A stretch of DNA of 38,182 nt from the NCBI GenBank assembly GCA_044358815.1, contig JBIKNH010000012.1, positions 1 to 38,182 of the forward strand. Reading direction: 5' to 3'. Shown piece after piece: positions 3,080 to 36,935 of the stretch; the first letter of the stretch is position 1, and every line of letters begins with the position of its first letter. The position numbers were made by a program, and so were the translations under genes. The notes under the pieces were generated by a model. It did not search any database. It saw nothing but the letters and a program-made list of their open reading frames with translations, and was not told where the DNA came from. Source of the stretch: Pseudanabaenaceae cyanobacterium. GTDB taxonomy: Bacteria > Cyanobacteriota > Cyanobacteriia > Pseudanabaenales > Pseudanabaenaceae.

Positions 3080-3340
3080 GGTTAACCTAGGTTGTGGTGT
3101 TCTGGAGCCAGCCCCACAGCCTCATATCCCACAAATAAACACAAATAAATATCTATTTTCAGTCATATCTGTTGCAGTTCGTATCAAAATCAACTGTCCA
3201 TGATCCCCCCCGTTGGCTAAGATCTGCGGCGGTTTGTTAAAGATCCGCCATTGAGGAGCACTTAAACCGTCACTGGATTTCTATTTCATCAATTCCCATT
3301 CCATCCACCAGATTGCAAGACTACAAGGACATTTAGACCC

Positions 3341-5879: not shown

Positions 5880-6372
5880 AGGAAAAGAGCCTTAGTTGAA
5901 GAGCCGTAGTTTTTGGTGAAGAGGCAGGGGGATAGCGAGGCTGAGATTAACCCGAATTATCGTCAATACCAGCAAAGTTAGTATATACTCTTATTGTGTT
6001 ATTAAGAAATATTAAGAAAACCAATTTATCATCGATTGCTGTCAATGGCTAAAGATTCCTGAAAAATTGAATTCAGTAATCAGAGAAAGTAACTTCTCTA
6101 AAGCCTTGATCTTCCTACCTAAATAAACTTTAGTCCTGTATTTTATTCATCAACTTTTAGCTTATTTCTAACAAACTTTGACAAACCTCAGTAAACCTTC
6201 CCGAATATCTAATACTGCATCTCATTCGTCTGCTTAATTGACAAATTGCGAACTAATCAAACTATTAACTACACCAATGATTAAGCTCATAATTAATTAG
6301 CGATATTAGGTAGTACTCCATCAGGTAAAACTGTTTAAATTAATTCTCAAATAATTCTCAAAAATTTGTAAA

Positions 6373-7263
6373 ATGACTATAAAAAATTCCATGCACCAAA
6401 ACAATTTTCAAAATCTCTTAGATTGGCTGAATCGGCAGATATTGCTCTCTTGGCAGCGTTTCCATGAGCAATGTACCAGGCTGATCATAGCCGTTGTTTT
6501 GGTTGCCTTAATTGGTTTGAGTCCTAGTTTGACCGCTCCTGCCTATGCCTACGATGCTCCTGAACTGCTACCCCCAGAATATTCCAATGTGATTGATTTG
6601 GGGCGTTTTTTGGCAGATGGTCAAGAGGCAGAATTAGACAAGCAATTGCAAGAGTTTGAAACTCGTACTGGTTGGAAATTACGGGTTCTAACCCAAGTGG
6701 ATCGCACCCCTGGACGAGCAGTAAAAGATTTTTGGGGTCTCAATGATCGCAGCATTATGTTAGTGGCAGATTCTCGCGGTAGGAATCTCCTAAATTTTAG
6801 TGTGGGTGATGAGGTTTATAACTTGTTGCCGCGCACTTTTTGGATTGAATTACAGTCTCGTTATGGCAATCAGTTTTATGTGCGAGATCAGGGACATGAT
6901 CAATCAATTTTAGCGGCTATCGATGCCATTGAAACTTGTTTAGAACAGGATGGTTGTCGAGTGGTGCCAGGGCTACCCCAAGAGCAATGGATTTTAACTT
7001 TGCTGACTTCATTGGTGGGCGGGTTTGTGTTTGGTTTTGCGGGACATCCTCGTAAAGAAGGGGAGATTTTTGCTTGGAAATGGGCTTTGGTATTTACACC
7101 GCTGTGGGGCATGTTGTTTATTTCCTTTGGTATTGGTCCGGTGATTAGTCGGACTGCGGAATGGTTGCCCATCGTGCGCAATGTTGCCGGATTTATTGGC
7201 GGTGCAGTGATTGCCTATCTGATTCCTTCCCCTAGTCGTCCCGAAACTTCTAAAGAATCTTAA
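6373..7263 (+). CDS. TPM-domain protein (TLP18.3/Psb32-like, photosystem II repair-associated family)
   Basis: N-terminal TM/signal region, then a TPM-domain-like segment (GRFLADGQEAELDKQLQEFETRTGWKLRVLTQ ... IMLVADSRGRNLLNF) and a C-terminal TM segment. This architecture is typical of cyanobacterial Psb32 homologues. Confidence 0.6.
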   Translation: MTIKNSMHQNNFQNLLDWLNRQILLSWQRFHEQCTRLIIAVVLVALIGLSPSLTAPAYAYDAPELLPPEYSNVIDLGRFLADGQEAELDKQLQEFETRTGWKLRVLTQVDRTPGRAVKDFWGLNDRSIMLVADSRGRNLLNFSVGDEVYNLLPRTFWIELQSRYGNQFYVRDQGHDQSILAAIDAIETCLEQDGCRVVPGLPQEQWILTLLTSLVGGFVFGFAGHPRKEGEIFAWKWALVFTPLWGMLFISFGIGPVISRTAEWLPIVRNVAGFIGGAVIAYLIPSPSRPETSKES

Positions 7264-8845: not shown

Positions 8846-10043
8846 CTAAAACTCCAGTTACAATTTTATTCTCAATAACTGCAGCTATTGCAGGGTGAAC
8901 TATAAAACGTGGTTTAGGATAACGATATTCCAAGATGTGACCTGTGTGTAATAACTCCCAGTGCTCAGAATTGCTAGGAAAAAAAGAACTTCGGGCGAAT
9001 ATGCGAAGAATAGTCATCTCTGAAGCATTTAAGCCCATAAGTTTTAAACGAACAAAGGGTAAAATTGCTTGTTCAACATGCTGAGCTGTAATTCTATCAG
9101 CTCCATCTAAGTAAGCCTCCTCAATCGACATTTGAGAAATAGATATAAAATCTCGTAAAACCCCTCCTGAACATGATATTAACAGTGACCGTGCATCTGA
9201 AGTGAAAATGTTATCGGGATCTCTCACGCCCATAATATCAATAAAAAACTGTTTAGCTTCAACACTATCAAATACATCAAGATATGGTAGATATACTAAA
9301 AGCCCTTTAATGTTTTCTCTTAGCATTTGGGTTATTGCTACAGAACCCACGATAATTGAGCCAATTCCAGCAATTTCCCTAACCATTCTTGCATCATTTA
9401 AAGCGGATTCAAAAAATAGTTGTGGATCAGCTATTCTATCTAGTCCGTCAAAGAGGAAAACAATTTCTTTTGCAATTTTCTGTTTGACAGCTTCTTTCAA
9501 AGTAGATAAATCTTGCACAAGAGATTCTATGATTTTTTGTTTTTTGTTATTTAGCGATAGTATTCCTTGATAATCAAGAGAAATCTGCTCTTCCCACGGC
9601 TCTAAACTTTGCTCAGGCACATACACTACTGTTTCGCTATATCCATGAGCCACTTTTTCGATTCGTTTTTTACATTTTTCTAGTATGGTATTCTTCATAT
9701 CACCCAAGATATTTATTAACTCAAGTCCCGCAATAGCAATTAAAGCACCTGCCTGAAGATTAGAGATGTCAGTAAAAAGACTGACATCAACATAGATAGC
9801 TTGTATATCTTCCAGTTCATTTAACGCACTTTGAGTTAGCAAAAGTTGGGTGGTTTTACCTGCTCCAATACCACCCAAAAGAATCTTTATTGACGAAGGA
9901 TTTACCTCAATTCTTCTGGTAATCTCTCTAATAGGACTGTTTGGCAATTTAACATAAAATCCTCGCTCGACAGCACGCTGAGGATTGGAAGTACCTTCAA
10001 AAGCTGACATCAGCTTACGGAAAAACTTTAGGCGCTCAGACAT
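8838..10043 (-). CDS. P-loop NTPase, STAND/NACHT-like (Walker A GGIGAGKTT; Walker B VFLFDGLDR); first gene of a 3-gene AT-rich operon
   Basis: ORF of 401 aa. The GxGxGKTT P-loop follows FYVKLP...REITRRI, and the hhhhDGhD Walker B resembles the NACHT signature. The C-terminal ~120 aa look helical/winged-helix-like (MTILRIFARS). There are no repeat-type sensor domains. GC is markedly lower than the flanks. Confidence 0.7.
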   Translation of the reverse strand: MSERLKFFRKLMSAFEGTSNPQRAVERGFYVKLPNSPIREITRRIEVNPSSIKILLGGIGAGKTTQLLLTQSALNELEDIQAIYVDVSLFTDISNLQAGALIAIAGLELINILGDMKNTILEKCKKRIEKVAHGYSETVVYVPEQSLEPWEEQISLDYQGILSLNNKKQKIIESLVQDLSTLKEAVKQKIAKEIVFLFDGLDRIADPQLFFESALNDARMVREIAGIGSIIVGSVAITQMLRENIKGLLVYLPYLDVFDSVEAKQFFIDIMGVRDPDNIFTSDARSLLISCSGGVLRDFISISQMSIEEAYLDGADRITAQHVEQAILPFVRLKLMGLNASEMTILRIFARSSFFPSNSEHWELLHTGHILEYRYPKPRFIVHPAIAAVIENKIVTGVLDD

Positions 10044-10173
10044 GGCATTCTCAATCTAAATAAATGACGAGTTAGTACTTACATTCTAGCGGATGCGTTA
10101 GGATCTGCAAAGAAGCCAGATAAAGCCCTGCGCTAGAAATATGCTATTGCGATAAGATAATTGTTGCAAGCCA

Positions 10174-12519
10174 ATGATCGTCACTGCTTTAAATATGACC
10201 ACTGACACCGACAAGCGCCAGTTTTCCCCCGCACAACTTAAAGCCGAGGGACTCACCCCCGACGAATATCAAATGATTTGCGACCGCTTGGGACGGGAAC
10301 CCAATCGCGCTGAGTTGGGTATGTTCGGCGTGATGTGGTCGGAACATTGCTGTTACAAAAACTCCCGCCCCCTCCTAGGGCAATTTCCCACCAAAGGCGA
10401 GCGAATCTTAGTCGGACCTGGCGAAAACGCTGGCGTAGTCAAGATTACCGATGATCTTGCCATCAGTTTCAAAATTGAAAGCCATAACCGCCCCTCAGCA
10501 GTAGAACCCTATCAAGGAGCCGCAACTGGAGTCGGTGGCATTTTGCGCGATATTTTCACCATGGGAGCGCGACCCGTGGCGTTACTCAATGCTTTACGTT
10601 TTGGCGAACTGTCTGATCCTTGGGTCCGGAGCCGCGTGCGGGGCATCGTCGATGGCATCGCTGGTTATGGTAATTGCGTCGGCGTGCCCACCATCGGCGG
10701 TGAAGTTTACTTCGATAAATCCTACAATCGCAATCCTTTGGTTAATGCAATGGCAATCGGGATTATGGAAACTCCCGAAATCGTCAAAGCTGGAGCGGTT
10801 GGGGTCGGTAATCCAGTGGTTTATGTCGGTTCCACAACGGGGCGCGATGGCATGAAAGGCGCGAGTTTTGCCAGTGCTGAACTGTCTGCTAAATCTGAAC
10901 AGGATCGCCCAGCAGTGCAAGTGGGAGATCCATTTTTAGAGAAGTCATTAATCGAAGCCTGTTTAGAAGCTTTTAAATCAGGGGCAGTGGGAGCCGCCCA
11001 AGACATGGGAGCCGCTGGCTTGACATGTTCCACTTCCGAAATGGCAGCTAAAGGGAATGTGGGAATTATTTTAGATCTCGATAAAATCCCCGCACGGGAA
11101 ACGGGTATGGTTCCCTATGAATATTTGCTTTCTGAATCCCAAGAGCGGATGCTTTTCGTGGCTCATAAAGGACAAGAACAAGATCTGATTGCGATTTTTG
11201 AACGCTGGGGTTTACATGGCGTAGTGGCAGGAGAAGTCATTGCTGAGCCAATTGTACGGATTCTCTGGCATGGGGAAACTGCCGCCGAAATTCCCGCCAC
11301 AGCCTTGGCAGACAATACACCAATTTATCACCGCACCCTCGGACCAGTACCAGAATATGCGCAAAAAGCTTGGGCTTGGAACGAAGCCGAAACCTTAGGG
11401 AATCTTCAAGTATCCCCCCAAGATGCTTTCCTGACATTGCTAGATACTCCTTCCATTGCGTCTAAGGCGTGGGTCTATCGCCAATATGATCATCAAGTAC
11501 AGAACAATACGGTGGTATTTCCTGGGGGAGCCGATGCCGCAGTGATTCGGATTCGTAAACAAGATTTTGGCATTGGTAATTTAGAACCTAATCAGTTCGC
11601 TAATACCAGAGCTTTAGACAATTCCATTGGTGTAGCGGCAACCGTAGACTGTAATGCCCGTCTGGTTTATCTCGATCCCTACGAAGGTGCAAAACTGGCT
11701 GTAGCTGAAGCTGCTCGGAATCTTTCCTGTGTGGGTGCGGAACCTTTAGCCGTAACCGATAATCTCAATTTCGGCAGTCCCGAACATAGCATCGGTTATT
11801 GGCAACTGCACGAAGCCTGTCGCGGTATTGCCGACGCTTGCCGTGAATTAGCCACCCCAGTTACTGGCGGTAATGTTTCTCTCTATAACGAAACGATTCA
11901 GAGCGATGGCACCAGTAGCCCGATTTATCCTACCCCTGTGATTGGCATGGTGGGGTTAGTGCCTGACGTGACGAAGGTTTGCGGACAGGGTTTCAGAGGC
12001 GTAGGGGATGCCATTTACTTAATTGGTGGCGATGCAGTGAGTTTGGCTGGTTCCGAATACCTAGCGACAATTCTTGAAACCGTAGCTGGTAAACCTGTGG
12101 CAGTGGATTTGAATCTAGAGAAGACTGTCCAAGCCGCAAACCGTTATGGAGTAGCCCACGATTGGCTCAGATCTGCCCATGACTGCGCTGAAGGTGGTTT
12201 GACGGTGGCGGTGGCAGAGTCGGCAATCGCTGGTGGTCTCAGTGCTGTGATTGATTTAGCGAATCCTCAGGAACAACATCTCACCGTGCTGTTATTTGGC
12301 GAAGGTCCGAGTCGAATTGTGGTAAGCGTTGCGCCTGAAAACGTGGCAGCTTGGGAAGCTTATCTAACAAGTCAAGAAGTTCCAGTACAAAAAATTGGTG
12401 CGGTGGCAGCGGCAGATCAAGATTTCACCATTAAGGTGGCGGGTGAAACCTTGATTAATGCGCCATTACAGCAACTGATTGATACTTATAACCAGGCAAT
12501 TCCTCGCCGCATGGTTTAG
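10174..12519 (+). CDS. purL: phosphoribosylformylglycinamidine synthase subunit PurL
   Basis: Conserved small-PurL N-terminus ([40 protein letters not shown]) and paired AIRS/AIRS_C domains; 781 aa is close to the typical ~740 aa. The true start may be the ATG at 10195 (MTTDTDK). Confidence 0.9.
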
Positions 12520-12810
12520 AGGGTGTTTGGGAAGTCTGCATATTCGCTAAAAACAATAATTGATCCCCCCTAGCCCCTCTTCCAAAAGATGAGAGGATAA
12601 CAAGAGATTAGCTTTATTCCCCCTTCCCCTTAATGGGAGAGTGGGGTTGGGGGATGAGGATGATATTTGTTCCACATAACATCATAATTAAGGTGATTCC
12701 TGCTATAACAGGTTGGCATAGGCACAAATTCTGTGGAGCTAGTCAGTTTTATCCTGGCTACTTTCATAAAGTGTTTAGAATTGCTATGATTAGTTACTGG
12801 TCGTAATTTA

Positions 12811-12906
12811 ATTACCAGATTAATTACCAGATTAATTACCAGATTAATTACCAGATTAATTACCAGATTAATTACCAGATTAATTACCAGATTAATTACC
12901 AGATTT
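12811..12906. repeat. perfect tandem array of a 12-bp unit ATTACCAGATTA, about 8 copies
   Basis: Read directly from the sequence: attaccagatta repeated head-to-tail from 12811. The last unit ends ...gattt, 16 nt before the ATG at 12923. Confidence 0.9.
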
Positions 12907-12922
12907 TGCCAGCACCTCAGTT

Positions 12923-15900
12923 ATGGAAAAACGGCATCTTATATTATCCGATCATGTTTCTCCAGAAGACTGGGACAATACACCCAGTAATGTTCGGCAT
13001 CTGGTTAATACGCTATTAGCAAGTGCGGTTTTATCAGACAATGAAAGCTATCTGGCACGGTTCCTAGATGCGACCCTCATCGGTATTGCGATTCATCGGT
13101 CAAACGGACAGTTAGTTTACATCAACAGTGTGGGACAATCTCTTCTAGGCACAAATCACTATCCAGAAACTAGTCCGAATCTTTTACCAGAATTTTTTCA
13201 AATATATCGCGCTGGTACTAACGAACTTTATCCAATTGAAAATTTACCCAGTAATCGTGCTCTGCGGGGAGAAACGATTCAAGTTAGTGATTTGGAAGTA
13301 CATCGTCTTGATCGCGTCGTGCCTTTAGAAGTATCAGCGACACCTGTTTTTAATCCACAGGGACAGGTGGTTTATGTCATCGCTACTTTTCGGGATATTA
13401 GCGAACGTCATCAAGCTGATGCAGCATTACAAAAAAGCGAACTCAAAATCATTAATTTAACTAATGCAATACCAGGGGCAGTTTTCCAATTTCAACTCAC
13501 GCCAGCAGGTGAATTAACCATGCCATTTGTGAGTCAGGGGCTTCGGGAACTGGCGGAGGTTTCACCACAACAGGTGGTCTATGATATACAGGTTTTTGCG
13601 AATTTAATCTTACTCGAAGATTGGCAAGCTATCAAACAAACCCTTGCTATTTCAGCGGAGACATTGCAGCCTTGGCATTTGGAATTTCAGATTCAAACTG
13701 GAAACCAAGGGCTGAAGTGGATCTTAGGTCAAGCAATGCCCCGTCATGAACCAGATGGCATAATTATTTGGAATGGAATTTTGACGGACATTAGTGATCG
13801 TAAACGTAGGGAAGTTGAACATCAGGAAGCGGAATTAGCTTTACAGCAAAGCGAAGATCGTTTTAGGGAAATGGCAGCGAATATCTCTGGCGCAATTTTC
13901 CGGTATCAACTTCGTCCCGATGGTTCTAAAGCAATTTTGTATATGAGTCCTGGATGCTATAGGATTTGGGAAGTTCCAGCAGAAATACTTGAAAAAGATG
14001 CCACTGTGCTATGTCAGATGGTCGATCCCCAAGATCAACTGATGCTACAAGAGTCAATTATAGAATCAGCCCAAACTCTTCAACCTTGGTCTTCAGCATG
14101 GCGCATTATTACACCATCAGGTTGTCATAAATGGCTAGAGGCTTCGGGTCGTCCTGAAAAGCAACCTAATGGCGAAGTTATTTGGGATGTGTTGGTTTTG
14201 GATGTGAGTGACCGTAAGTTCGCAGAGGAGCGGATTAGGGAACAACAAACCCAACTGGATTTAGTTGTGGAATCATCCCAAATTGGTTTCTATATCCATG
14301 ATCTGCGAAGTGGAACTTCTGTAGTTTCTTCGATCTATAAAACTCAACTGGGCTACCCGCCGGATGCTATAGAACCCTCGGCTAATGATTGGCAGGATCG
14401 CTTACATCCTGAGGATCGGCAGAGGGTGATCGCTGCGTTTGAAGCATTTCAGAATAGGGAATCTGTCTATAATGAGGATTTTCGGTTACTCCATCGCAAT
14501 GGTAGCTATCGGTGGATTCACAGCAACGCTCAGCTAATTTGTGATGAAATGGGAATGCCGATCAAGATAGTTGGTACTCATATTGATATTACTGATCGCA
14601 AAAAAATTGAAGAAAATTTGCGCCAAGCGATGGCAACCAATCAAGCCTTAATCAATACCCTGCCGGACTTGATTGTGCGCATTAGTCGAGAGGGAATTTA
14701 TCTAGATGCTATACCATCGGAAAGTGTGAAACTAGTAGTACCCCGCGATCAAATGATTGGCAAACGAATTCTAGATGTGCTACCCATAGAATTTGCTAGA
14801 CAGCGGATGTATTATGTAGAAAAAGCTTTTGAGACTGGTGAATTACAGATTCATGAATACGAAATCTTGATCGATAATGAAATCTGTTACGAAGAGTCGC
14901 GGATTGTTGTTAGTGGTGATAATGAAGTTATGAGTTTGATTCGTGATATTAGTGATCGCAAAAGAGCAGAAATATCTTTACGGCAGAGTGAATCACGGTA
15001 TCGGCTGTTAGCGGAAAACATTAATGATCTAGTTTGTTTGCATGATCCTGATGGTCGTTATATCTATGTCAGTCCCTCTTGCCAAACCCTTTTAGGCTAT
15101 CACTATGATGAAATGCTTGGCAAAAATCCTGAGATTTACTGTCATCCTGATGATCGCGAACGTGTACACCATGAATCCCTTACCGCAGCGAGTGTAGGGA
15201 AAGCTATCCCAATTACCTATCGAGTGCGCCAGAAGTCTGGTGATTATATCTGGTTTGAGACTTTAACCACGCCAATTATGGATGATCAGGGGCAGATAGT
15301 ACAACTACAAACCACTTCCCGAGATGTTACAGAACGGATTCAGGTGCAAAATCAATTAGAACATGAGGCGCTCCATGATGCATTGACGGGACTTCCCAAT
15401 CGGAATCTCTTAATGGAACGGTTAGAACTATCGATTCACCGCGCCAAACGCATTGATGATTATCGGTTTGCGGTGCTGTTTCTTGACCTGGATCGGTTCA
15501 AGGTAATCAATGATAGTTTAGGACATTTGCAGGGTGATCAGTTACTGATTGCCGTTGCCCAAAAGCTTCAATTTATTCTGCGAGATATTGACCTTGTGGC
15601 GCGGTTAGGCGGTGATGAATTTGTGATTCTCTTAGATGAAATTAAAGATGTCCAGGACGCGATTCACGCCACCCAGAGAATTTTTGCGACATTACAAACA
15701 CCAATGACCATTCAAGGTCGGGAAGTTTATACCACCTGTAGCATTGGTATTGTTGTGGGTACAAACAAATATACCCAAGCCTCTGACTTACTGCGGGATG
15801 CTGATACGGCAATGTATCGCGCTAAAAACAGTGGTAAAGCCCGATACGAAATCTTTGATGCCCAAATGCATCAGGAAGCTCTGAGACGGATGCATTTAGA

Positions 15901-16681
15901 GAATGATCTACGGCGAGCGATTGATTGCGAAGAGTTTGTCCTCCATTATCAGCCAATTATTTGTTTGAACAGTGGTAGCCTGGTGGGGTTTGAGGCTTTG
16001 ATGCGTTGGCAACATCCCACCCAAGGTTTGAAATCCCCTGGGGACTTTATCCCAGTGGCTGAAGAAATTGGATTGATTACATCCCTCAGTGCTTGGGCAC
16101 TACGCACAGCTTGTCAGCAGTTGACTAACTGGCAAATTGCTTTCTCTAATCTGCCCATTCTCAAAATGAGTGTGAATCTCTCGGTACAAGATCTCCGACG
16201 ACCGGATCTAGTGGCAGAAATTGATCTGATCCTCGCCCAAACTAAATTAGATGCTTGTTGCCTCACTCTAGAAATTACTGAGAGTATGTTAATTGAAGAT
16301 ATTGAGTCGATCACCGGACTGCTCACAGAGTTAAAAAGACGCGGCATTCAATTGAGTCTTGATGATTTTGGTACGGGATATTCATCATTGAGTTATCTGC
16401 ATCAGTTGCCAATGGATAATTTGAAGATCGATCAGTCTTTTGTGAACCGAATGCAGGAAGGAAAAAAGAATTATCAGATTGTGGAAACCATTGCCACCCT
16501 CAGTAGACAATTGGAACTTGATGCCATTGCGGAGGGCATTGAAACTTCCCAACAACTAGAGAGACTCAAAGCCTTAGGATATAAGTTTGGGCAAGGGTAT
16601 TTGTTTTCTCAGCCCCTCAGTGGGGAGACCATAGAAACACTTCTAGGACATCGTGATTTAGAGCATTTTGTGACGGTATGA
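12923..16681 (+). CDS. multi-PAS sensor diguanylate cyclase/phosphodiesterase (PAS x ~6-7, GGDEF, EAL)
   Basis: GGDEF motif in RLGGDEFVILL preceded by LHDALTGLPNR; the EAL domain has EALMRW and the DDFGTGYSSLSYL motif. The repeated PAS-type blocks are each preceded by DISDRK- or DITDRK-like linkers. Confidence 0.85.
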   Translation: MEKRHLILSDHVSPEDWDNTPSNVRHLVNTLLASAVLSDNESYLARFLDATLIGIAIHRSNGQLVYINSVGQSLLGTNHYPETSPNLLPEFFQIYRAGTNELYPIENLPSNRALRGETIQVSDLEVHRLDRVVPLEVSATPVFNPQGQVVYVIATFRDISERHQADAALQKSELKIINLTNAIPGAVFQFQLTPAGELTMPFVSQGLRELAEVSPQQVVYDIQVFANLILLEDWQAIKQTLAISAETLQPWHLEFQIQTGNQGLKWILGQAMPRHEPDGIIIWNGILTDISDRKRREVEHQEAELALQQSEDRFREMAANISGAIFRYQLRPDGSKAILYMSPGCYRIWEVPAEILEKDATVLCQMVDPQDQLMLQESIIESAQTLQPWSSAWRIITPSGCHKWLEASGRPEKQPNGEVIWDVLVLDVSDRKFAEERIREQQTQLDLVVESSQIGFYIHDLRSGTSVVSSIYKTQLGYPPDAIEPSANDWQDRLHPEDRQRVIAAFEAFQNRESVYNEDFRLLHRNGSYRWIHSNAQLICDEMGMPIKIVGTHIDITDRKKIEENLRQAMATNQALINTLPDLIVRISREGIYLDAIPSESVKLVVPRDQMIGKRILDVLPIEFARQRMYYVEKAFETGELQIHEYEILIDNEICYEESRIVVSGDNEVMSLIRDISDRKRAEISLRQSESRYRLLAENINDLVCLHDPDGRYIYVSPSCQTLLGYHYDEMLGKNPEIYCHPDDRERVHHESLTAASVGKAIPITYRVRQKSGDYIWFETLTTPIMDDQGQIVQLQTTSRDVTERIQVQNQLEHEALHDALTGLPNRNLLMERLELSIHRAKRIDDYRFAVLFLDLDRFKVINDSLGHLQGDQLLIAVAQKLQFILRDIDLVARLGGDEFVILLDEIKDVQDAIHATQRIFATLQTPMTIQGREVYTTCSIGIVVGTNKYTQASDLLRDADTAMYRAKNSGKARYEIFDAQMHQEALRRMHLENDLRRAIDCEEFVLHYQPIICLNSGSLVGFEALMRWQHPTQGLKSPGDFIPVAEEIGLITSLSAWALRTACQQLTNWQIAFSNLPILKMSVNLSVQDLRRPDLVAEIDLILAQTKLDACCLTLEITESMLIEDIESITGLLTELKRRGIQLSLDDFGTGYSSLSYLHQLPMDNLKIDQSFVNRMQEGKKNYQIVETIATLSRQLELDAIAEGIETSQQLERLKALGYKFGQGYLFSQPLSGETIETLLGHRDLEHFVTV

Positions 16682-17378: not shown

Positions 17379-20300
17379 ATGTTTAATCCTATTGCTGCAC
17401 TAACTGACTTAGACGTAAAACTAGCAATTATTCGGCATCCTTTGATGCTGCCCCCAGAAACCTTGGTTACTGATGCAATTGCGGCGATGAATCGTCATCG
17501 GGTGACTGGAATCTCAAATACTGGGACAGATCATTCTAGTTCTAGTCAACTGAAGCAACTCCATAACTCTCAACAGGATCTACAGGATCTACACCTTGAA
17601 ACCCACTTTAGCTGTGTCTTAGTGACCGAAGCATCTCGTTTAGTTGGGATTTTCAGTAGACGGGATATGGTGCGTTTAATTGCCCAGCAATATGCTCTGG
17701 AAAGATTACGTTTAGCAGATGTGATGATCCGTAAGGTCATCTCTCTACCGGAAATAGAATTTACGAATGTATTCGTAGCTACGGGATTATTACAGAAATA
17801 TCGGATTCGTAATTTACCCACCGTTGATGCTGACGGCAGAATTACGGGAATTATTACCCATGAGAGCCTCTGCCAAATTGCGCGACCTGTGGATTTGTTG
17901 CGGGTGCGTCAAGTGCAGGAGGTCATGACCAGTCCCGTAGTGTGGACCCGACCTGAGGCGACTATTTTAGAAGTTACCCGATTGATGCATCAACATCGCG
18001 TGAGTTCGGTGGTGATTGCACAGCCTGATTTAAGAACTGATTTAAGAACTGATTCAGGGACTGACTTAGAGAATAATCTAGAGACTGATTCTACAACTAC
18101 TGATCAGATAACTGACCAGATAACCAACCAGGTAAATAATAAACCAAATCATAGTTGTTCTTCTATTAAACCCATAGGAATTATTACGGAAAGAGATTTA
18201 GTCCAGTTTCATGCCCTTGGTTTAGCGGTGGAGGAGTATAACGCCGCCCAGATCATGAGTAGTCCAGTTTTTACGATCTTACCGGAAGAACATCTCTGGA
18301 ATGCCCAGCAGATTATGACACAACGGATGATCCGATCTGTAATTGTGGTGGATCAACAGCATAATCTCCAGGGTATTATTACCCATACCAGTTTATTGCG
18401 AGTATTAGATCCTACGGAACTTTATAAATTAGCCGAGGTTCTAGAAACCAGAGTTAATCAATTGGAATCGGAAAAAGTTAGAATTCTGGCACAGCGTACC
18501 GAAGATCTAGAACGAGAAGTTCAAGAACGGACCCATAAACTAGAGCTTACCCTAAAACGAGAAAAAATCATTAATCGGGTAGCCCAAAGGATTCGTAATT
18601 CCCTAGATCTCCATGAAATTTTAAATGCCTGCGTTATGGAAGTGCAGCGCTTTTTAGACTGTGATCGGGTGATTGTTTATCAGTGCGGGTGTGATCGTAG
18701 TGGTGTAGTGATTGCAGAGTCCGGCAACCCAAATTTTGACAGTCTTTTGGGAATTGATATTCCAGATAATTACTGTGAGAAGGAAACCATAGAGTTAATG
18801 AATGACGATGGAGCAGAGGCTGCCAATGGGCAAGTCATCGTGGATGATATTGATTCTGGCGCTTATCCACAGGAACAAATTGCATTCTTTAATCGGTATC
18901 AAGTTAAAGCCGGTCTGATGACACCGATCCGGCTAGATGGCAAGCTATGGGGGTTATTAGCAGCGCAGCAATGCCAATCTAGCCGTCAATGGTATTCCGA
19001 TGAAGCCGAGTTATTAAGTGCTTTGGCGGTGCAGTTGTCGATTGGGATTCGGCAATCCATCGCTTATACTGAAATGGAACAACAAGTCACCGAATCAAGA
19101 CTATGGCGCAAGCGCTACGAAGCCGCCGCCAGTAGCAGTGGGCAACTGATTTATGAATATGATCATCGTACAGGAAAAATCATTTGGGGAGCGGGTGTTC
19201 AGGAGACTTTAGGTTATAAACCGGAAGATGCTCCGTCGGATTTCCCATCTTATTGGCGTATCGTTCACCCTGACGATTTACCTCAGGTAGAAGCACTAGT
19301 GGAAGTATGTATTGACCTTAAAACTGTTTTTCATTACCAATATCGAGTATTACATCAGAGGGGAGAATATATTTGGGTTGAAGAACGGGGACAATGGCTG
19401 ACTGATCCCAATGGAGAAGCATATATCGTGGTGGGGATGGTGTCTGATATTACCCAACGGAAGTTAGTGGAGCAATCCCTGAAAACACAACGAGATTTTA
19501 GCCAGCTTATTGCGCAGATTACCAGCCGATTTGTGCATATCACATTGGCAGAACTAGACTCAGAAATCAATCGCAGTTTGCTGCTAATTGGTGGTGCAAT
19601 GGAGGCTGATACAAGCTTCCTTTACCGTTTAGATGATGCTAAAAGTACTCAGACCATGACCCACGAATGGACTAGAGATGGCTACTCTAGCAGGATGCAG
19701 CTAAATCAGCACCTACCCCTAGGAATCTGTCCTTGGTTCCAAAATTTAATTGCGGAACGCAAAACTTGCTATATACCGGACATAGACCATGCTCCCAACG
19801 ATGCAGCAGTAACAGTGGCACAGTGGCGCAGACTAGAACTAAAATCGATTCTGTTAGTTCCTTTATTACAACAAAATCAGGTGATTGGCTATATTGGCTG
19901 CGGTTCTTTGAGTACGCCGACATATTGGGAAGAGGAAGTGATTAACTTAGTCACGGTAATGGGACAGTCCATTGTGAATGCCCAAGAAAGACTGATTAAC
20001 CGTCAAGAACTAGAAACCCTCAATCATTCCCTAGAAGCAGAAATAGCCAGAAGAATTGATGAATTTCAACAGATTTATAGTCTACAGCAAGCCATTCTCA
20101 ATAGTTTTGATTATGCGATTATTTCAACGGATATCAACGGCATCATTCGGACATTCAATGCTGGCGCTGAAAACTTTTTAGGTTATAGCGCTAGTGAAGT
20201 GATTGGCAAAATGACTCCTGTAGTGTTTTACGATCCTCAAGAAGTCCAAGATCATGCCAACTACCTATCGGCAAAACTAGGGCGGTCTGTGAGTCCTGAT

Positions 20301-24786: not shown

Positions 24787-24838
24787 CGGTGGGGTGAAGC
24801 GGTACTCGTAAAAAGTACTTTTTACAAGTTGGTTACAC

Positions 24839-24932
24839 GAGCCATTTACACGAGCCATTTACACGAGCTATTTACACAAGTTATTTGTAAGGGTTATTTG
24901 TGAGAGTTATTTCTAAGAGGCATTTGCATAGT
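24839..24932. repeat. decaying tandem array of a 13-bp unit (CCATTTACACGAG x2, then CTATTTACACAAG, TTATTTGTAAGGG, TTATTTGTGAGAG, TTATTTCTAAGAG, GCATTTGCATAG)
   Basis: Read directly. The two 5' copies are perfect and the following copies diverge progressively. It lies between the receiver-kinase stop and folP. Confidence 0.8.
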
Positions 24933-27375: not shown

Positions 27376-27538
27376 AACATCTCTATTTATCTTGATCAGG
27401 TCCATCAGGTCCTCGATTTCTGTGGGAAGTCGGGGACTTTTGGTGAGTAAAATTTAGTTATGGTAGTTATGGATTTGGTTGTTCAAAATAGGTTGATTTA
27501 ACTCGCTAATTCCCGTCAATCACACCTGAGGTGCAAAC

Positions 27539-29119: not shown

Positions 29120-29395
29120 CAGGGCGAATAATATAACTGGATTAGTGACCGGATTGATGAGCCAGATTGATTGATTTGGTTAGGAGATAATTGGCGAAAT
29201 CCCAGACAACAGTTTAGAGGTTGAGTTAAATTTATTACAACACCATTTATTACAACGGCATTTATCACAGCACCTGATCAACTTAAGCTCCAACCACCCA
29301 AATCTTGACGGTTTCGGCTCAAGCTGCCAATGCAAAGGTTAAACTCAGTAGCCGAAAAGTGATTAAGCAATGAGAGAAATCGCAAAAATGATTTA

Positions 29396-31439: not shown

Positions 31440-31865
31440 CATCATCATAGAGGTTACGATCAATCAGCCTTTTCTTGGTTAGTTGAGCAGTAACATCGGA
31501 GATAGTATCAAGGCGATGCACGGACCAATAGTCAATCTAAAGTTAGCCTGATGAGATTAGTCTGGTTGGTCCATCGACCTGGTTGCCAAAACTGATTGCT
31601 AAAAGTGGTTACCAAAAGTGGTTGCAAATCTAGTCAAGGAAACCAAATAAAACTATCTGTTCTGATGCGTTACCTTTATGCATCATTGGCTCCCTCACAT
31701 GAACCCCATTGACCAGACTAAATTGATAAGTTTGGGGGACGTGGCTTCAATCAAGGGACTATCGAAACCGCCGACCAGAAAAAAGATTTCCGTCTGTAGG
31801 ATTACATCATAGGCTAGTCAACCTTTGCGCCCCTAGTTGTTGTTTTATGACTTTTGTATAACTTT

Positions 31866-33990: not shown

Positions 33991-34789
33991 GGAAATAGAT
34001 TAATAAAATTACATTGACTTACCGTAAAATTTTGTAAAATTTTTGTATATGTCTAGAATTGGGCTGAGAAGCATGACAAGGGGATCACAGTCCTATGGAA
34101 AATGGTCTTTAGCAGGTCTTTAATAGGTTTTCAACGAGGTCTTTAATGGTGATTATTTAATGGCAATTTATTCTATATTGACCAGATAATAGACCGTAAT
34201 CTAAACCATAATCTGGCATTAACTAGGCATTATTCAGGTCAATTATGAGTCAGCGCCGTTTCTTAAATAATTTCTTAACTAAAATTTCTTAACTAAAGGT
34301 TAACTAGTTGATTACCTTAGCAGTGTGACCAAAGCGAGACAGCAAAGCAGATTACAAATTAATAATTATGGTTGTGCTATGGTTGCCGATGCCTTGATGA
34401 AGCTGAGACATAGAGAATTAAGAGCCAACCAATAACCCACAATAACCCAGCAACAAAATAACGCAGTAACAATAAGGGCATAACCTGTTAATTGATCATT
34501 ACAATACGCGGGGTTAATCGATAGATCTATTACAGTAGGTCTATTACAGTGAAACTATCCCTGTAGCCTGTGCCGAAGCTTTCTGTAACTTTTCGTCATG
34601 TTTCGCAATTGATTGACATAATCCGGAATCTAAGTTAGCCAACAATTGCCCATTAACTCTTACCCATAAGCTGTTTAGAATCTACTGTCCGATTTGGCGA
34701 ATATTAAGCCGATCATCATCAAATTGCGATATTTTATAACCCTATTTTTGAACTTTTAACACTTTTCAGAATTTCCCAATTTACTGAGG

Positions 34790-36874: not shown

Positions 36875-36935
36875 ATATAGAACAAATTAAAATAGAACAA
36901 ATTAAATTAGAAATAACGAAAGAGAATTTACCGGT

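What the first reader, a model, noticed from the sequence alone, without database searches (positions are those of the whole stretch)
12811..12906. Perfect 12-bp x8 tandem array (ATTACCAGATTA) ending 16 nt before the start codon of the 1252-aa PAS-GGDEF-EAL gene
A perfectly homogeneous short tandem array sits where the -35/-10 elements and 5'UTR of a c-di-GMP turnover gene should be. Perfect copies imply recent expansion or ongoing slippage. Changes in copy number would alter promoter-to-ATG spacing or the number of binding sites, which is a classic phase or rheostat mechanism for adjusting expression. The 12-bp period (slightly longer than one helical turn of B-DNA) places successive copies on nearly the same face of the helix, which is compatible with cooperative binding of a regulator. 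The two-component proteins encoded immediately downstream are candidates for that regulator.
Basis: seen in the sequence. Interest (0 to 1): 0.55.

Follow-up and report, generated by a model that had tools for sequence, protein, structure and literature searches.

The report
Variable 12-base repeat before signalling gene
A perfect 12-base repeat just upstream of a cyanobacterial c-di-GMP signalling gene is real and has 8, 5 or 2 copies in otherwise almost identical environmental strains, so it is a fast-mutating repeat of a familiar kind, probably in the mRNA leader, with no shown effect on the gene.

Summary
Window 12808-12905 is a 100% perfect 12-nt array (TTAATTACCAGA, 8.2 copies) that ends 17 nt before the ATG (12923) of a 1252-aa PAS-GGDEF-EAL gene. 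The window comes from an uncultured Pseudanabaenaceae cyanobacterium.

- **Copy number varies.** Four other assemblies of the same locus carry 5, 2, 2 and 2 copies, and the rest of the 403-nt intergenic region is identical. The 5-copy contig differs from the window by 2 SNPs in about 26 kb, and the array is the only indel.
- **The unit comes from the leader.** The 67%-identical orthologue has one copy (AATTACCAGATTTTGTCAG) at the same distance from the homologous ATG, in five assemblies. The likely path is 1, then 2, then 5 or 8 copies.
- **Probable position.** Orthologues share a -10-like TATACAAT 31-42 nt upstream of the ATG. The window's counterpart (TGcTATGAT, 12782-12790) lies upstream of the array, so the array is probably in the 5'UTR. 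This is inferred, not shown.
- **Regulator idea.** No neighbouring protein has a DNA-binding domain. A 12-bp period rotates each copy by about 51 degrees. Predicted start-codon accessibility does not change with copy number.

Verdict: a hypermutable VNTR made by slippage, in a genome rich in short tandem duplications. Any rheostat function is untested. It is a new member of a known kind.

The parts
12808..12905 (+). Perfect 12-nt tandem array, TTAATTACCAGA x 8.2. It is a variable-number repeat with 8 copies here and 5 or 2 copies in other assemblies.
   Evidence: TRF, exact-match search, allele comparison.
12893..12912 (+). Conserved leader block AATTACCAGATTTTGCCAG (last repeat unit plus the 3' flank). 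It is the template from which the repeat unit was duplicated. It matches 18 of 19 nt in the 67%-identical orthologue, at the same distance from the ATG.
   Evidence: L001 keeps ATTTTGTCAG in a different frame relative to the ATG, so the conservation is at the nucleotide level rather than in a coding frame.
12782..12790 (+). Candidate extended -10 element TGcTATGAT. A -35-like TTCATA lies at 12763-12768. It is the presumed counterpart of the TATACAAT conserved in orthologues. The TSS is inferred at about 12797.
   Evidence: Promoter scan. TATACAAT/TATAAAAT lies 31-42 nt upstream of the ATG in L021, L026, L027 and L001, preceded by a shared ATTGC. This is inferred; no TSS data exist.
12797..12801 (+). 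CTGGT, complementary to the ACCAG of the repeat units. In predicted RNA folds it closes a 5'-terminal stem around the array.
   Evidence: ViennaRNA folds. Prediction only; z = -2.1.
12923..16681 (+). 1252-aa PAS-GGDEF-EAL gene (c-di-GMP synthesis/hydrolysis), the gene immediately downstream of the array.
   Evidence: An identical protein is found in ENA, JGI and NCBI MAGs named Pseudanabaenaceae cyanobacterium.
10174..12519 (+). purL (FGAM synthase II), the upstream neighbour. It is not the ancestral neighbour, because orthologues of the PAS-GGDEF-EAL gene follow ureG.

Best explanation
The array is a hypermutable variable-number tandem repeat (VNTR). It most probably lies in the 5' untranslated leader of the PAS-GGDEF-EAL mRNA. 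It arose when 12 nt of a conserved leader sequence (AATTACCAGAT...) were tandemly duplicated, giving the 2-copy state seen in three more diverged strains. It then expanded by replication slippage to 5 and 8 copies in one very young sub-lineage. This genome makes short tandem duplications at a high rate in intergenic DNA, and this is the one locus in the window where a duplication became a multi-copy, self-propagating array. The palindromic TTAATTA core lets neighbouring units form weak hairpins, which favours misalignment. The direct consequence is a leader of about 54, 90 or 126 nt that carries 2, 5 or 8 copies of the conserved leader motif. Shown: the array, its whole-unit polymorphism between near-identical strains, the single-copy homologue in the orthologue, and the absence of any nearby DNA-binding protein. 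Inferred: the position of the TSS, and hence the 5'UTR location, and slippage as the mechanism. Unknown: whether copy number changes expression. My estimate is that the variation is neutral or only mildly tuning, not an evolved switch.
For: - **Array:** 8.2 perfect copies.
- **Alleles:** 8 (window), 5 (L005, ENA ERZ27272100), 2 (L009, NCBI GCA_046318355.1), 2 (L010, JGI 3300081717) and 2 (L011, NCBI GCA_046307535.1). All differences are whole units (36 or 72 nt). All 331 other intergenic columns are invariant.
- **Youth of the change:** the window and the ERZ27272100 contig differ by 2 SNPs and no other indel over window 9887-35961. The array therefore changed at least once in the time that about 8e-5 substitutions per site accumulated.
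- **Assembly support:** all three allele lengths (26, 62 and 98 nt) are shorter than the 141-nt final k-mer shown in the contig name, so they should be spanned by single k-mers (inference).
- **Origin of the unit:** orthologue P0004 (67% aa identity) has one copy...CCAATTACCAGATTTTGTCAG..., at the same offset from the ATG in 5 assemblies.
- **Promoter position:** a -10-like TATACAAT/TATAAAAT lies 31-42 nt upstream of the ATG in four orthologous loci. The window has TGcTATGAT at 12782-12790, upstream of the array.
- **Genome-wide process:** the window holds 17 perfect tandem duplications of period 9-20 against 0.145 expected. Three of the four other inter-strain indels lie in tandem repeats, and two are clean gains or losses of one unit: 17 nt at 31521 and 10 nt at 34430.
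- **Hairpins:** the single-stranded DNA array folds at -5.9 kcal/mol, z = -6.45.
- **Coding and RNA families:** the array is not coding (TAA in the gene frame) and matches no Rfam family.
Against: - No reads were available. Within-population heterogeneity and assembler behaviour at the repeat could not be checked, and the window's own assembler and k-mer size are unknown.
- The TSS is not mapped. A weak -10-like CAGATT in each unit, conserved in the closest orthologue, cannot be excluded as promoter material.
- The three alleles differ by exactly 3 units (2, 5, 8), which simple one-unit slippage does not predict.
- The duplicated block is a conserved leader motif, which leaves room for a functional effect of multiplying it.
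- Only five alleles exist in the public data searched.
Confidence: 0.6

Rival explanations
1. Adaptive rheostat or contingency locus. Copy number of the leader repeat heritably and reversibly tunes expression of the c-di-GMP enzyme. It could act through mRNA stability (AU-rich RNase E targets or a 5' stem), through leader length, or by multiplying a conserved leader motif bound by a trans-acting protein, an sRNA or a standby ribosome. The result would be population heterogeneity in c-di-GMP-controlled behaviour.
For: The array is hypervariable between near-clonal strains. It sits directly before a signalling gene. The unit is a copy of a leader block that is 18/19 conserved at 67% protein identity, which argues that the block itself is functional. 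Precedents exist: AGAT repeats in the Moraxella uspA2 5'UTR, with expression depending on copy number, and TAACTGA repeats just upstream of start codons in Beggiatoaceae and cyanobacteria (PMC4679880), and promoter tandem-repeat copy-number variation in M. tuberculosis (PMC12817950).
Against: There are no expression data. The predicted opening energy of the start region is flat, at 10.3-11.2 kcal/mol for 0-16 copies. Expansion is confined to one very young sub-lineage, while three strains keep 2 copies and the sister lineage keeps 1. That pattern fits a recent accident as well as it fits selection. The genome is full of similar small duplications with no obvious role.
Confidence: 0.25
2. Array of binding sites on DNA for a transcription factor. 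Cooperative binding to the 12-bp repeats would control the promoter, with the downstream two-component proteins as the regulator.
For: Direct repeats with an AT-rich core (TTAATTA) superficially resemble response-regulator direct-repeat sites. The array lies next to two-component genes.
Against: Neither two-component protein, nor any other ORF in the window, has a DNA-binding domain. A 12-bp period rotates successive sites by about 51 degrees, whereas direct-repeat sites of OmpR/PhoB-type regulators have a 10-11 bp period (my own knowledge). Copy number is not conserved: 2, 5 and 8 here, and 1 in the orthologue. The unit occurs nowhere else in the window, and two tandem units occur in none of the 185,579 GTDB representative genomes, so there is no sign of a regulon. 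The array lies downstream of the likely -10.
Confidence: 0.05
3. Assembly artefact. The copy numbers 8, 5 and 2 are produced by short-read assemblers mishandling one true array length.
For: All sources are short-read metagenome assemblies or MAGs. Tandem repeats are known trouble spots for assemblers. A Logan (k = 31) contig of the same strain breaks in this intergenic region, at window 12544.
Against: The 26, 62 and 98 nt arrays are all shorter than k = 141. A collapsed longer repeat would give a contig break or an array of at least about k (reasoning about de Bruijn graph assembly, not a test). Three independent pipelines and samples (NCBI x2, JGI) agree on 2 copies. Those 2-copy strains also form the more diverged group, so copy number tracks phylogeny. 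Other arrays, for example the 13-nt repeats at 24833-24919, have identical length in 9 assemblies.
Confidence: 0.1

Closest known systems
AGAT tetranucleotide repeat in the 5'UTR of Moraxella catarrhalis uspA2 (Attia & Hansen 2006, as summarised in PMC4679880)
   Same: A short unit is repeated head to tail between the transcription start and the start codon. Copy number depends on the strain (6-23 there; 2, 5 and 8 here). Slippage is the presumed source of variation.
   Different: The unit is 12 nt rather than 4. The organism is a free-living cyanobacterium rather than a mucosal pathogen, and the gene is a cytoplasmic signalling enzyme rather than a surface protein. The effect on expression was measured there and is unmeasured here. 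The 5'UTR placement here is inferred.
TAACTGA heptamer direct repeats upstream of start codons in Beggiatoaceae, Cyanobacteria and Bacteroidetes (PMC4679880), and the cyanobacterial STRR heptamer repeats (Mazel et al. 1990, from my own knowledge)
   Same: These are perfect short direct repeats in intergenic DNA that end a few nucleotides before a start codon. They occur in cyanobacteria, reach arrays of up to tens of copies, and have been proposed to act post-transcriptionally.
   Different: Those are families in which one heptamer recurs at many loci in a genome. Here the 12-mer is locus-specific. There is no other copy in the window, no 2-unit match in GTDB representative genomes, and only one unrelated locus (two near-identical contigs) in JGI metagenomes. 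The unit derives from the gene's own leader.
Promoter tandem repeat (PTR/VNTR) copy-number variation in Mycobacterium tuberculosis (PMC12817950)
   Same: Whole-unit copy-number variation occurs immediately upstream of genes (12-29 bp from the start codon there). It varies between very closely related strains and is interpreted as phase-variable expression.
   Different: The units there are 54-58 bp and each contains a promoter, so copies add promoters. Here the unit is 12 nt, contains no recognisable promoter, and lies downstream of the likely -10.
Classical promoter-spacer contingency loci (for example TA repeats between -35 and -10 of Haemophilus influenzae hifA/B, and TAAA repeats upstream of Neisseria nadA; from my own knowledge)
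   Same: A hypermutable simple repeat lies in the control region of a gene, and copy number changes by slippage.
   Different: The array is not between the -35 and -10 hexamers. The unit is longer. No on/off phenotype is known.

Membership tests
Hypermutable VNTR / simple-sequence contingency-type locus | Head-to-tail copies of a short unit with very high identity | tested here: met
   8.2 copies, 100% matches, no indels.
Hypermutable VNTR / simple-sequence contingency-type locus | Copy number differs in whole units between closely related strains while the flanks stay identical | tested here: met
   8, 5, 2, 2 and 2 copies, with gaps of 36 and 72 nt. The 331 other intergenic columns are invariant. 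The 5-copy contig differs by 2 SNPs in about 26 kb.
Hypermutable VNTR / simple-sequence contingency-type locus | High-frequency, reversible change within a clonal population | not testable with these tools
   This needs reads or long-read population data. Only consensus contigs are available.
Hypermutable VNTR / simple-sequence contingency-type locus | Copy number changes the expression or function of the adjacent gene | not testable with these tools
   The only proxy is the predicted opening energy of the start region, which is flat at 10.3-11.2 kcal/mol for 0-16 copies.
Promoter-spacer phase variation (repeat between -35 and -10) | The repeat tract lies between the two promoter hexamers, so that copy number alters their spacing | tested here: not met
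   The scan finds no hexamer pair in or flanking the array. The candidate promoter at 12763-12790 lies wholly upstream. The conserved -10 of the orthologues aligns upstream of the repeat unit.
Iterated transcription-factor binding sites (response-regulator direct repeats, iteron-like) | Period close to the helical repeat (10-11 bp), so that the sites share one face | tested here: not met
   The period is 12 bp. That gives a 51-degree rotation per unit and about 360 degrees over the array (arithmetic).
Iterated transcription-factor binding sites (response-regulator direct repeats, iteron-like) | A cognate DNA-binding protein encoded nearby, and a site number conserved among relatives | tested here: not met
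   No DNA-binding Pfam domain was found in any window ORF. Copy number is 1, 2, 5 or 8 among relatives.
Dispersed heptamer repeat families (TAACTGA, STRR) | A 7-nt unit, the same at many loci in a genome | tested here: not met
   The unit is 12 nt. There are no further copies in the window, and two tandem units match nothing in GTDB representative genomes.
Known cis-regulatory RNA (riboswitch or leader families in Rfam) | Match to an Rfam covariance model | tested here: not met
   Only two chance-level hits (E = 0.28 and 0.72, far below the gathering scores) in 12300-13200.

The most novel reading that the evidence does not exclude
The 12-nt unit is a functional leader motif (AAUUACCAGAU, conserved with the orthologue). 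A trans-acting factor recognises it: an RNA-binding protein, an sRNA or a standby ribosome. Slippage-driven multiplication of that motif would then act as a heritable, reversible dial on a bifunctional c-di-GMP enzyme. A free-living filamentous cyanobacterial population would gain bet-hedging diversity in c-di-GMP-controlled behaviour such as motility or aggregation. That would be a contingency locus outside the host-pathogen setting.
Probability: 0.15. Interest if true: 0.7.

Novelty: new member of a known kind. Interest (0 to 1): 0.4.

Why it matters
Repeat-driven variation in gene control regions is well documented in host-associated pathogens and, recently, in M. tuberculosis. It is little documented in free-living phototrophs. 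Here public metagenomes already show natural alleles (2, 5 and 8 copies) in near-clonal Pseudanabaenaceae strains, directly before a c-di-GMP turnover gene. The single-copy ancestral state is preserved in a sister lineage. This gives a ready-made allelic series for testing whether leader repeats tune signalling-gene expression in cyanobacteria. If there is no effect, the locus is still a useful high-resolution strain marker (VNTR) for this lineage. It also illustrates how a genome with frequent small tandem duplications seeds unstable arrays.

Tried and rejected
- **Exact 2-unit pattern in GTDB representative genomes:** 0 hits.
- **Exact 2-unit pattern in JGI metagenome contigs:** two contigs of one unrelated organism, with 2 copies in the opposite orientation abutting a start codon. 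I judged this coincidental.
- **3'-flank pattern in IMG/VR:** 0 hits.
- **Protein-guided loci from GTDB genomes (L001-L004):** 41-60% identical, no array, different neighbours. They were too distant for copy-number comparison but useful for the leader and promoter comparison.
- **Search with the N-terminal 200 aa for further fragments or alleles:** only one 59%-identical protein, so no more alleles.
- **Exact look-up of the 296-aa TPM-domain protein (6373-7263):** not on record.
- **Coding hypothesis (tetrapeptide repeat or N-terminal extension):** rejected. The gene frame has a TAA in every unit, the other two frames are closed just upstream and have no start codon, and no ORF of at least 60 aa covers the array. 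The 33-aa N-terminal extension annotated for orthologue P0004 is likely a gene-caller artefact running through the leader.
- **Rfam:** nothing.
- **RNA-structure switch hypothesis:** start-site opening energy does not depend on copy number, and the leader fold is only z = -2.1.
- **Selective conservation of the intergenic region:** 0 SNPs in 331 nt, but local SNP density predicts only about 2, so this is not informative.
- **GC-rich inverted repeat at 12563-12655 as a structured element:** fold z = -0.37, not significant.

Full report
**1. Observation**

Tandem Repeats Finder reports one outstanding array in the window: 12808-12905, period 12, 8.2 copies, 100% matches, no indels, score 196. 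Eight exact in-register copies of TTAATTACCAGA are found. The rest of the 38 kb has only three matches with 1-2 mismatches, which is the chance level.

The ORF 12923-16681 (1252 aa) carries several PAS domains plus GGDEF and EAL, and the GGDEF, EALxR and DDFGTG motifs are intact. Orthologues start at the homologous MEK..., which supports ATG 12923 as the start.

Seventeen nucleotides separate the array from the ATG. In the gene's frame each unit reads TAA-TTA-CCA-GAT. The other two frames are closed just upstream and contain no start codon. The array is therefore non-coding.

**2. Source and context**

The identical protein occurs in ENA, JGI and NCBI metagenome assemblies, named 'MAG: Pseudanabaenaceae cyanobacterium'. 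The nearest GTDB representative genomes are Pseudanabaena-like, at 52-60% protein identity.

- Upstream lies purL (10174-12519).
- Downstream lie a 2078-aa CBS-GAF-PAS hybrid histidine kinase and a 395-aa REC-histidine kinase.
- The other ORFs are housekeeping genes.
- No ORF in the window has a recognisable DNA-binding domain.

**3. The key result: copy number is polymorphic**

Exact-protein look-ups retrieved four other assemblies of the same locus.

| Assembly | Source | Identity to window (regions flanking the array) | Copies |
|---|---|---|---|
| window | not disclosed | - | 8 |
| L005 / L012 | ENA ERZ27272100, k141_1599970 | 2 SNPs over 9887-35961 | 5 |
| L011 | NCBI GCA_046307535.1 | 99.1-99.7% | 2 |
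| L009 | NCBI GCA_046318355.1 | 96.8-99.5% | 2 |
| L010 | JGI 3300081717 | 96.5-98.9% | 2 |

In a five-way alignment of the 403-nt intergenic region, every column outside the array is invariant, and the gaps are exactly 36 and 72 nt. The ERZ27272100 contig has 0 SNPs and 0 indels over window 15104-35961. Over 9887-15103 it has 2 SNPs plus the 36-nt array gap. The array therefore changed at least once while about 8e-5 substitutions per site accumulated. The copy numbers also track relatedness, since the three 2-copy strains are the more diverged ones.

The allele lengths (26, 62 and 98 nt) are all below k = 141, so each should be spanned by single k-mers. A collapsed longer array would give a contig break or an array of at least about k. 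This is reasoning rather than a read-level test, so I keep assembly artefact as a 10% rival.

As a control, the imperfect 13-nt arrays at 24833-24919 have the same length in nine assemblies.

**4. Origin of the unit**

The closest orthologue outside this lineage is P0004, at 67% identity. In it the gene follows ureG, as it does in three other Pseudanabaena-type loci. Its leader reads ...CCAATTACCAGATTTTGTCAGTGTCGTGGTTATGG. The window reads ...TTAATTACCAGATTTTGCCAGCACCTCAGTTATGG.

The block AATTACCAGATTTTGYCAG is 18/19 identical and sits at the same distance from the ATG. The 7 nt at positions -10 to -4 before the ATG match at only 1 of 7. L001 keeps ATTTTGTCAG one nucleotide further from the ATG, in another frame, so the conservation is at the nucleotide level.

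All five assemblies of the P0004 lineage have exactly one copy. The repeat unit is therefore a duplicated piece of a conserved leader. The likely history is 1 copy, then 2, then 5 or 8.

**5. Where the array sits relative to the promoter**

Four orthologous loci share a -10-like TATACAAT or TATAAAAT 31-42 nt upstream of the ATG. In two of them it is preceded by ATTGC.

The window has ATTGC-TATGAT, an extended -10 (TGcTATGAT) at 12782-12790. The consensus scan pairs it with TTCATA at 12763. No promoter-like pair lies inside the array.

I infer a TSS near 12797 and a 5'UTR of about 54, 90 or 126 nt for 2, 5 or 8 copies. This is an inference from comparison, not a mapped TSS. A weak -10-like CAGATT present in every unit cannot be ruled out.

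**6. Mechanism of variation**

The window contains 17 perfect tandem duplications of period 9-20, against 0.145 expected from shuffles. Most are intergenic. Three of the four other indels between strains lie in tandem repeats, and two are clean single-unit events: a 17-nt unit at 31521 and a 10-nt unit at 34430.

Small tandem duplication is therefore a general mutational habit of this genome. This locus is the only one in the window that grew beyond three copies.

Each unit has a palindromic TTAATTA core. As single-stranded DNA the array forms weak hairpins between neighbouring units (-5.9 kcal/mol, z = -6.45), which is consistent with slipped-strand misalignment. The observed steps of exactly three units (2, 5, 8) are unexplained.

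**7. Functional consequences**

I folded the leader with 0-16 copies. The array pairs with itself and with a 5' CUGGU. The start-codon region keeps the same local hairpin, and its opening energy stays at 10.3-11.2 kcal/mol. The whole-leader fold is only marginally better than shuffles (z = -2.1). No Rfam family matches.

There is thus no computational sign of a copy-number-dependent switch. However, leader length, AU-rich RNase targets and multiplication of a conserved motif could still matter.

The DNA-operator idea is weak for four reasons:
- A 12-bp period rotates sites by about 51 degrees per copy.
- Copy number is unconstrained.
- The unit occurs nowhere else: not in the window, and not as two tandem units in any GTDB representative genome.
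- The adjacent two-component proteins lack DNA-binding outputs.

**8. Comparison with known systems**

- The nearest functional analogue is the AGAT repeat in the uspA2 5'UTR of Moraxella.
- The nearest in cyanobacteria are the TAACTGA/STRR heptamer repeats that end just before start codons (PMC4679880).
- Promoter tandem-repeat copy-number variation in M. tuberculosis is a recent parallel, with much larger units that each carry a promoter (PMC12817950).

This locus meets the structural and population criteria of a VNTR or contingency-type repeat. It does not meet the criteria for promoter-spacer repeats, helically phased binding-site arrays or dispersed heptamer families. Reversibility and an effect on expression remain untested.

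**9. Verdict**

The array is real and genuinely hypervariable. It derives from the gene's own conserved leader and is probably transcribed as part of the 5'UTR. It is best explained as a slippage-driven VNTR in a duplication-prone genome (confidence about 0.6). An adaptive rheostat on a c-di-GMP gene is the interesting minority reading (about 0.25 in the broad form, about 0.15 for the specific motif-titration version). It is a new member of a known kind and of moderate interest.

Noticed in passing
whole window (e.g. 3130-3149, 6000-6019, 6341-6362, 27395-27412, 27455-27472, 34024-34043, 34269-34297, 34430-34449, 36877-36906): The window holds 17 perfect tandem duplications of period 9-20 nt, against 0.145 expected from shuffles. 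Most are intergenic. One (6341-6362, TAATTCTCAAA x2) ends 11 nt before the ATG at 6373. The genome appears unusually prone to short tandem duplications.
   Followed up: partly
window 31521, 34430-34439, 29250 versus L013 (JGI 3300081717): Other indels between strains about 1.6% apart also lie in tandem repeats. L013 has a 17-nt unit GGACCAATAGTCAATCT duplicated, the 10-nt unit CAATAACCCA is present twice in the window and once in L013, and there is a 17-nt change inside the 15-nt repeats at 29230-29274.
   Followed up: partly
window 24824-24919: Two adjacent imperfect 13-nt arrays (TTACACGAGCCAT x about 4, AGTTATTTGTAAG x about 3) lie in the 318-nt spacer upstream of folP. Their length is identical in nine assemblies, unlike the 12-nt array. 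Their function is unknown.
   Followed up: partly
window 12563-12655: A GC-rich imperfect inverted repeat (ATCCCCCCTAGCCCCTCTTCCA / TGGGAGAGTGGGGTTGGGGGAT) lies downstream of purL. It occurs once in the window, and its fold is no better than shuffles. A Logan k = 31 contig of the same strain ends at 12544, just before it, which hints that it may be a dispersed element elsewhere in the genome.
   Followed up: partly
L021, L026, L027, L001 versus window 10174-12923: The synteny differs. In Pseudanabaena-type relatives the orthologous PAS-GGDEF-EAL gene follows the urease accessory genes (ureF-ureE divergent, then ureG) with a 65-170 nt spacer. In the window's lineage it follows purL with a 403-nt spacer, yet it keeps a homologous -10 and leader.
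   Followed up: partly
L021 3001-3060 (protein P0004); also P0003 and P0013: Gene callers extend some orthologues 9-20 residues upstream through the leader (for example MALVIQLTKNQLPDFVSVVV-MEKQHL). The homologous start is the internal MEK/MKQ methionine, so these N-terminal extensions are probably annotation artefacts.
   Followed up: partly
L007 3113-3136 and L008 1830-1853: The same 24-mer (two units) occurs in an unrelated, GC-richer organism from microbial-mat and JGI metagenomes. It is in reverse orientation and is separated by 2 nt from the start codon of a small gene. This is probably coincidence.
   Followed up: no
window 18025-18135: Two in-frame 12-nt repeats (CTGATTTAAGAA x4, ACTGACCAGATA x3) lie in the domain-free N-terminal 290 residues of the 2078-aa hybrid kinase ORF. 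The four assemblies that cover this stretch (L005, L009/L014, L010, L012) show no length variation.
   Followed up: no
window 12808-12905, alleles in L005, L009, L010 and L011: The three observed alleles differ by exactly three units (2, 5, 8 copies, in 36-nt steps). One-unit slippage does not predict this. With three alleles it may be chance.
   Followed up: no
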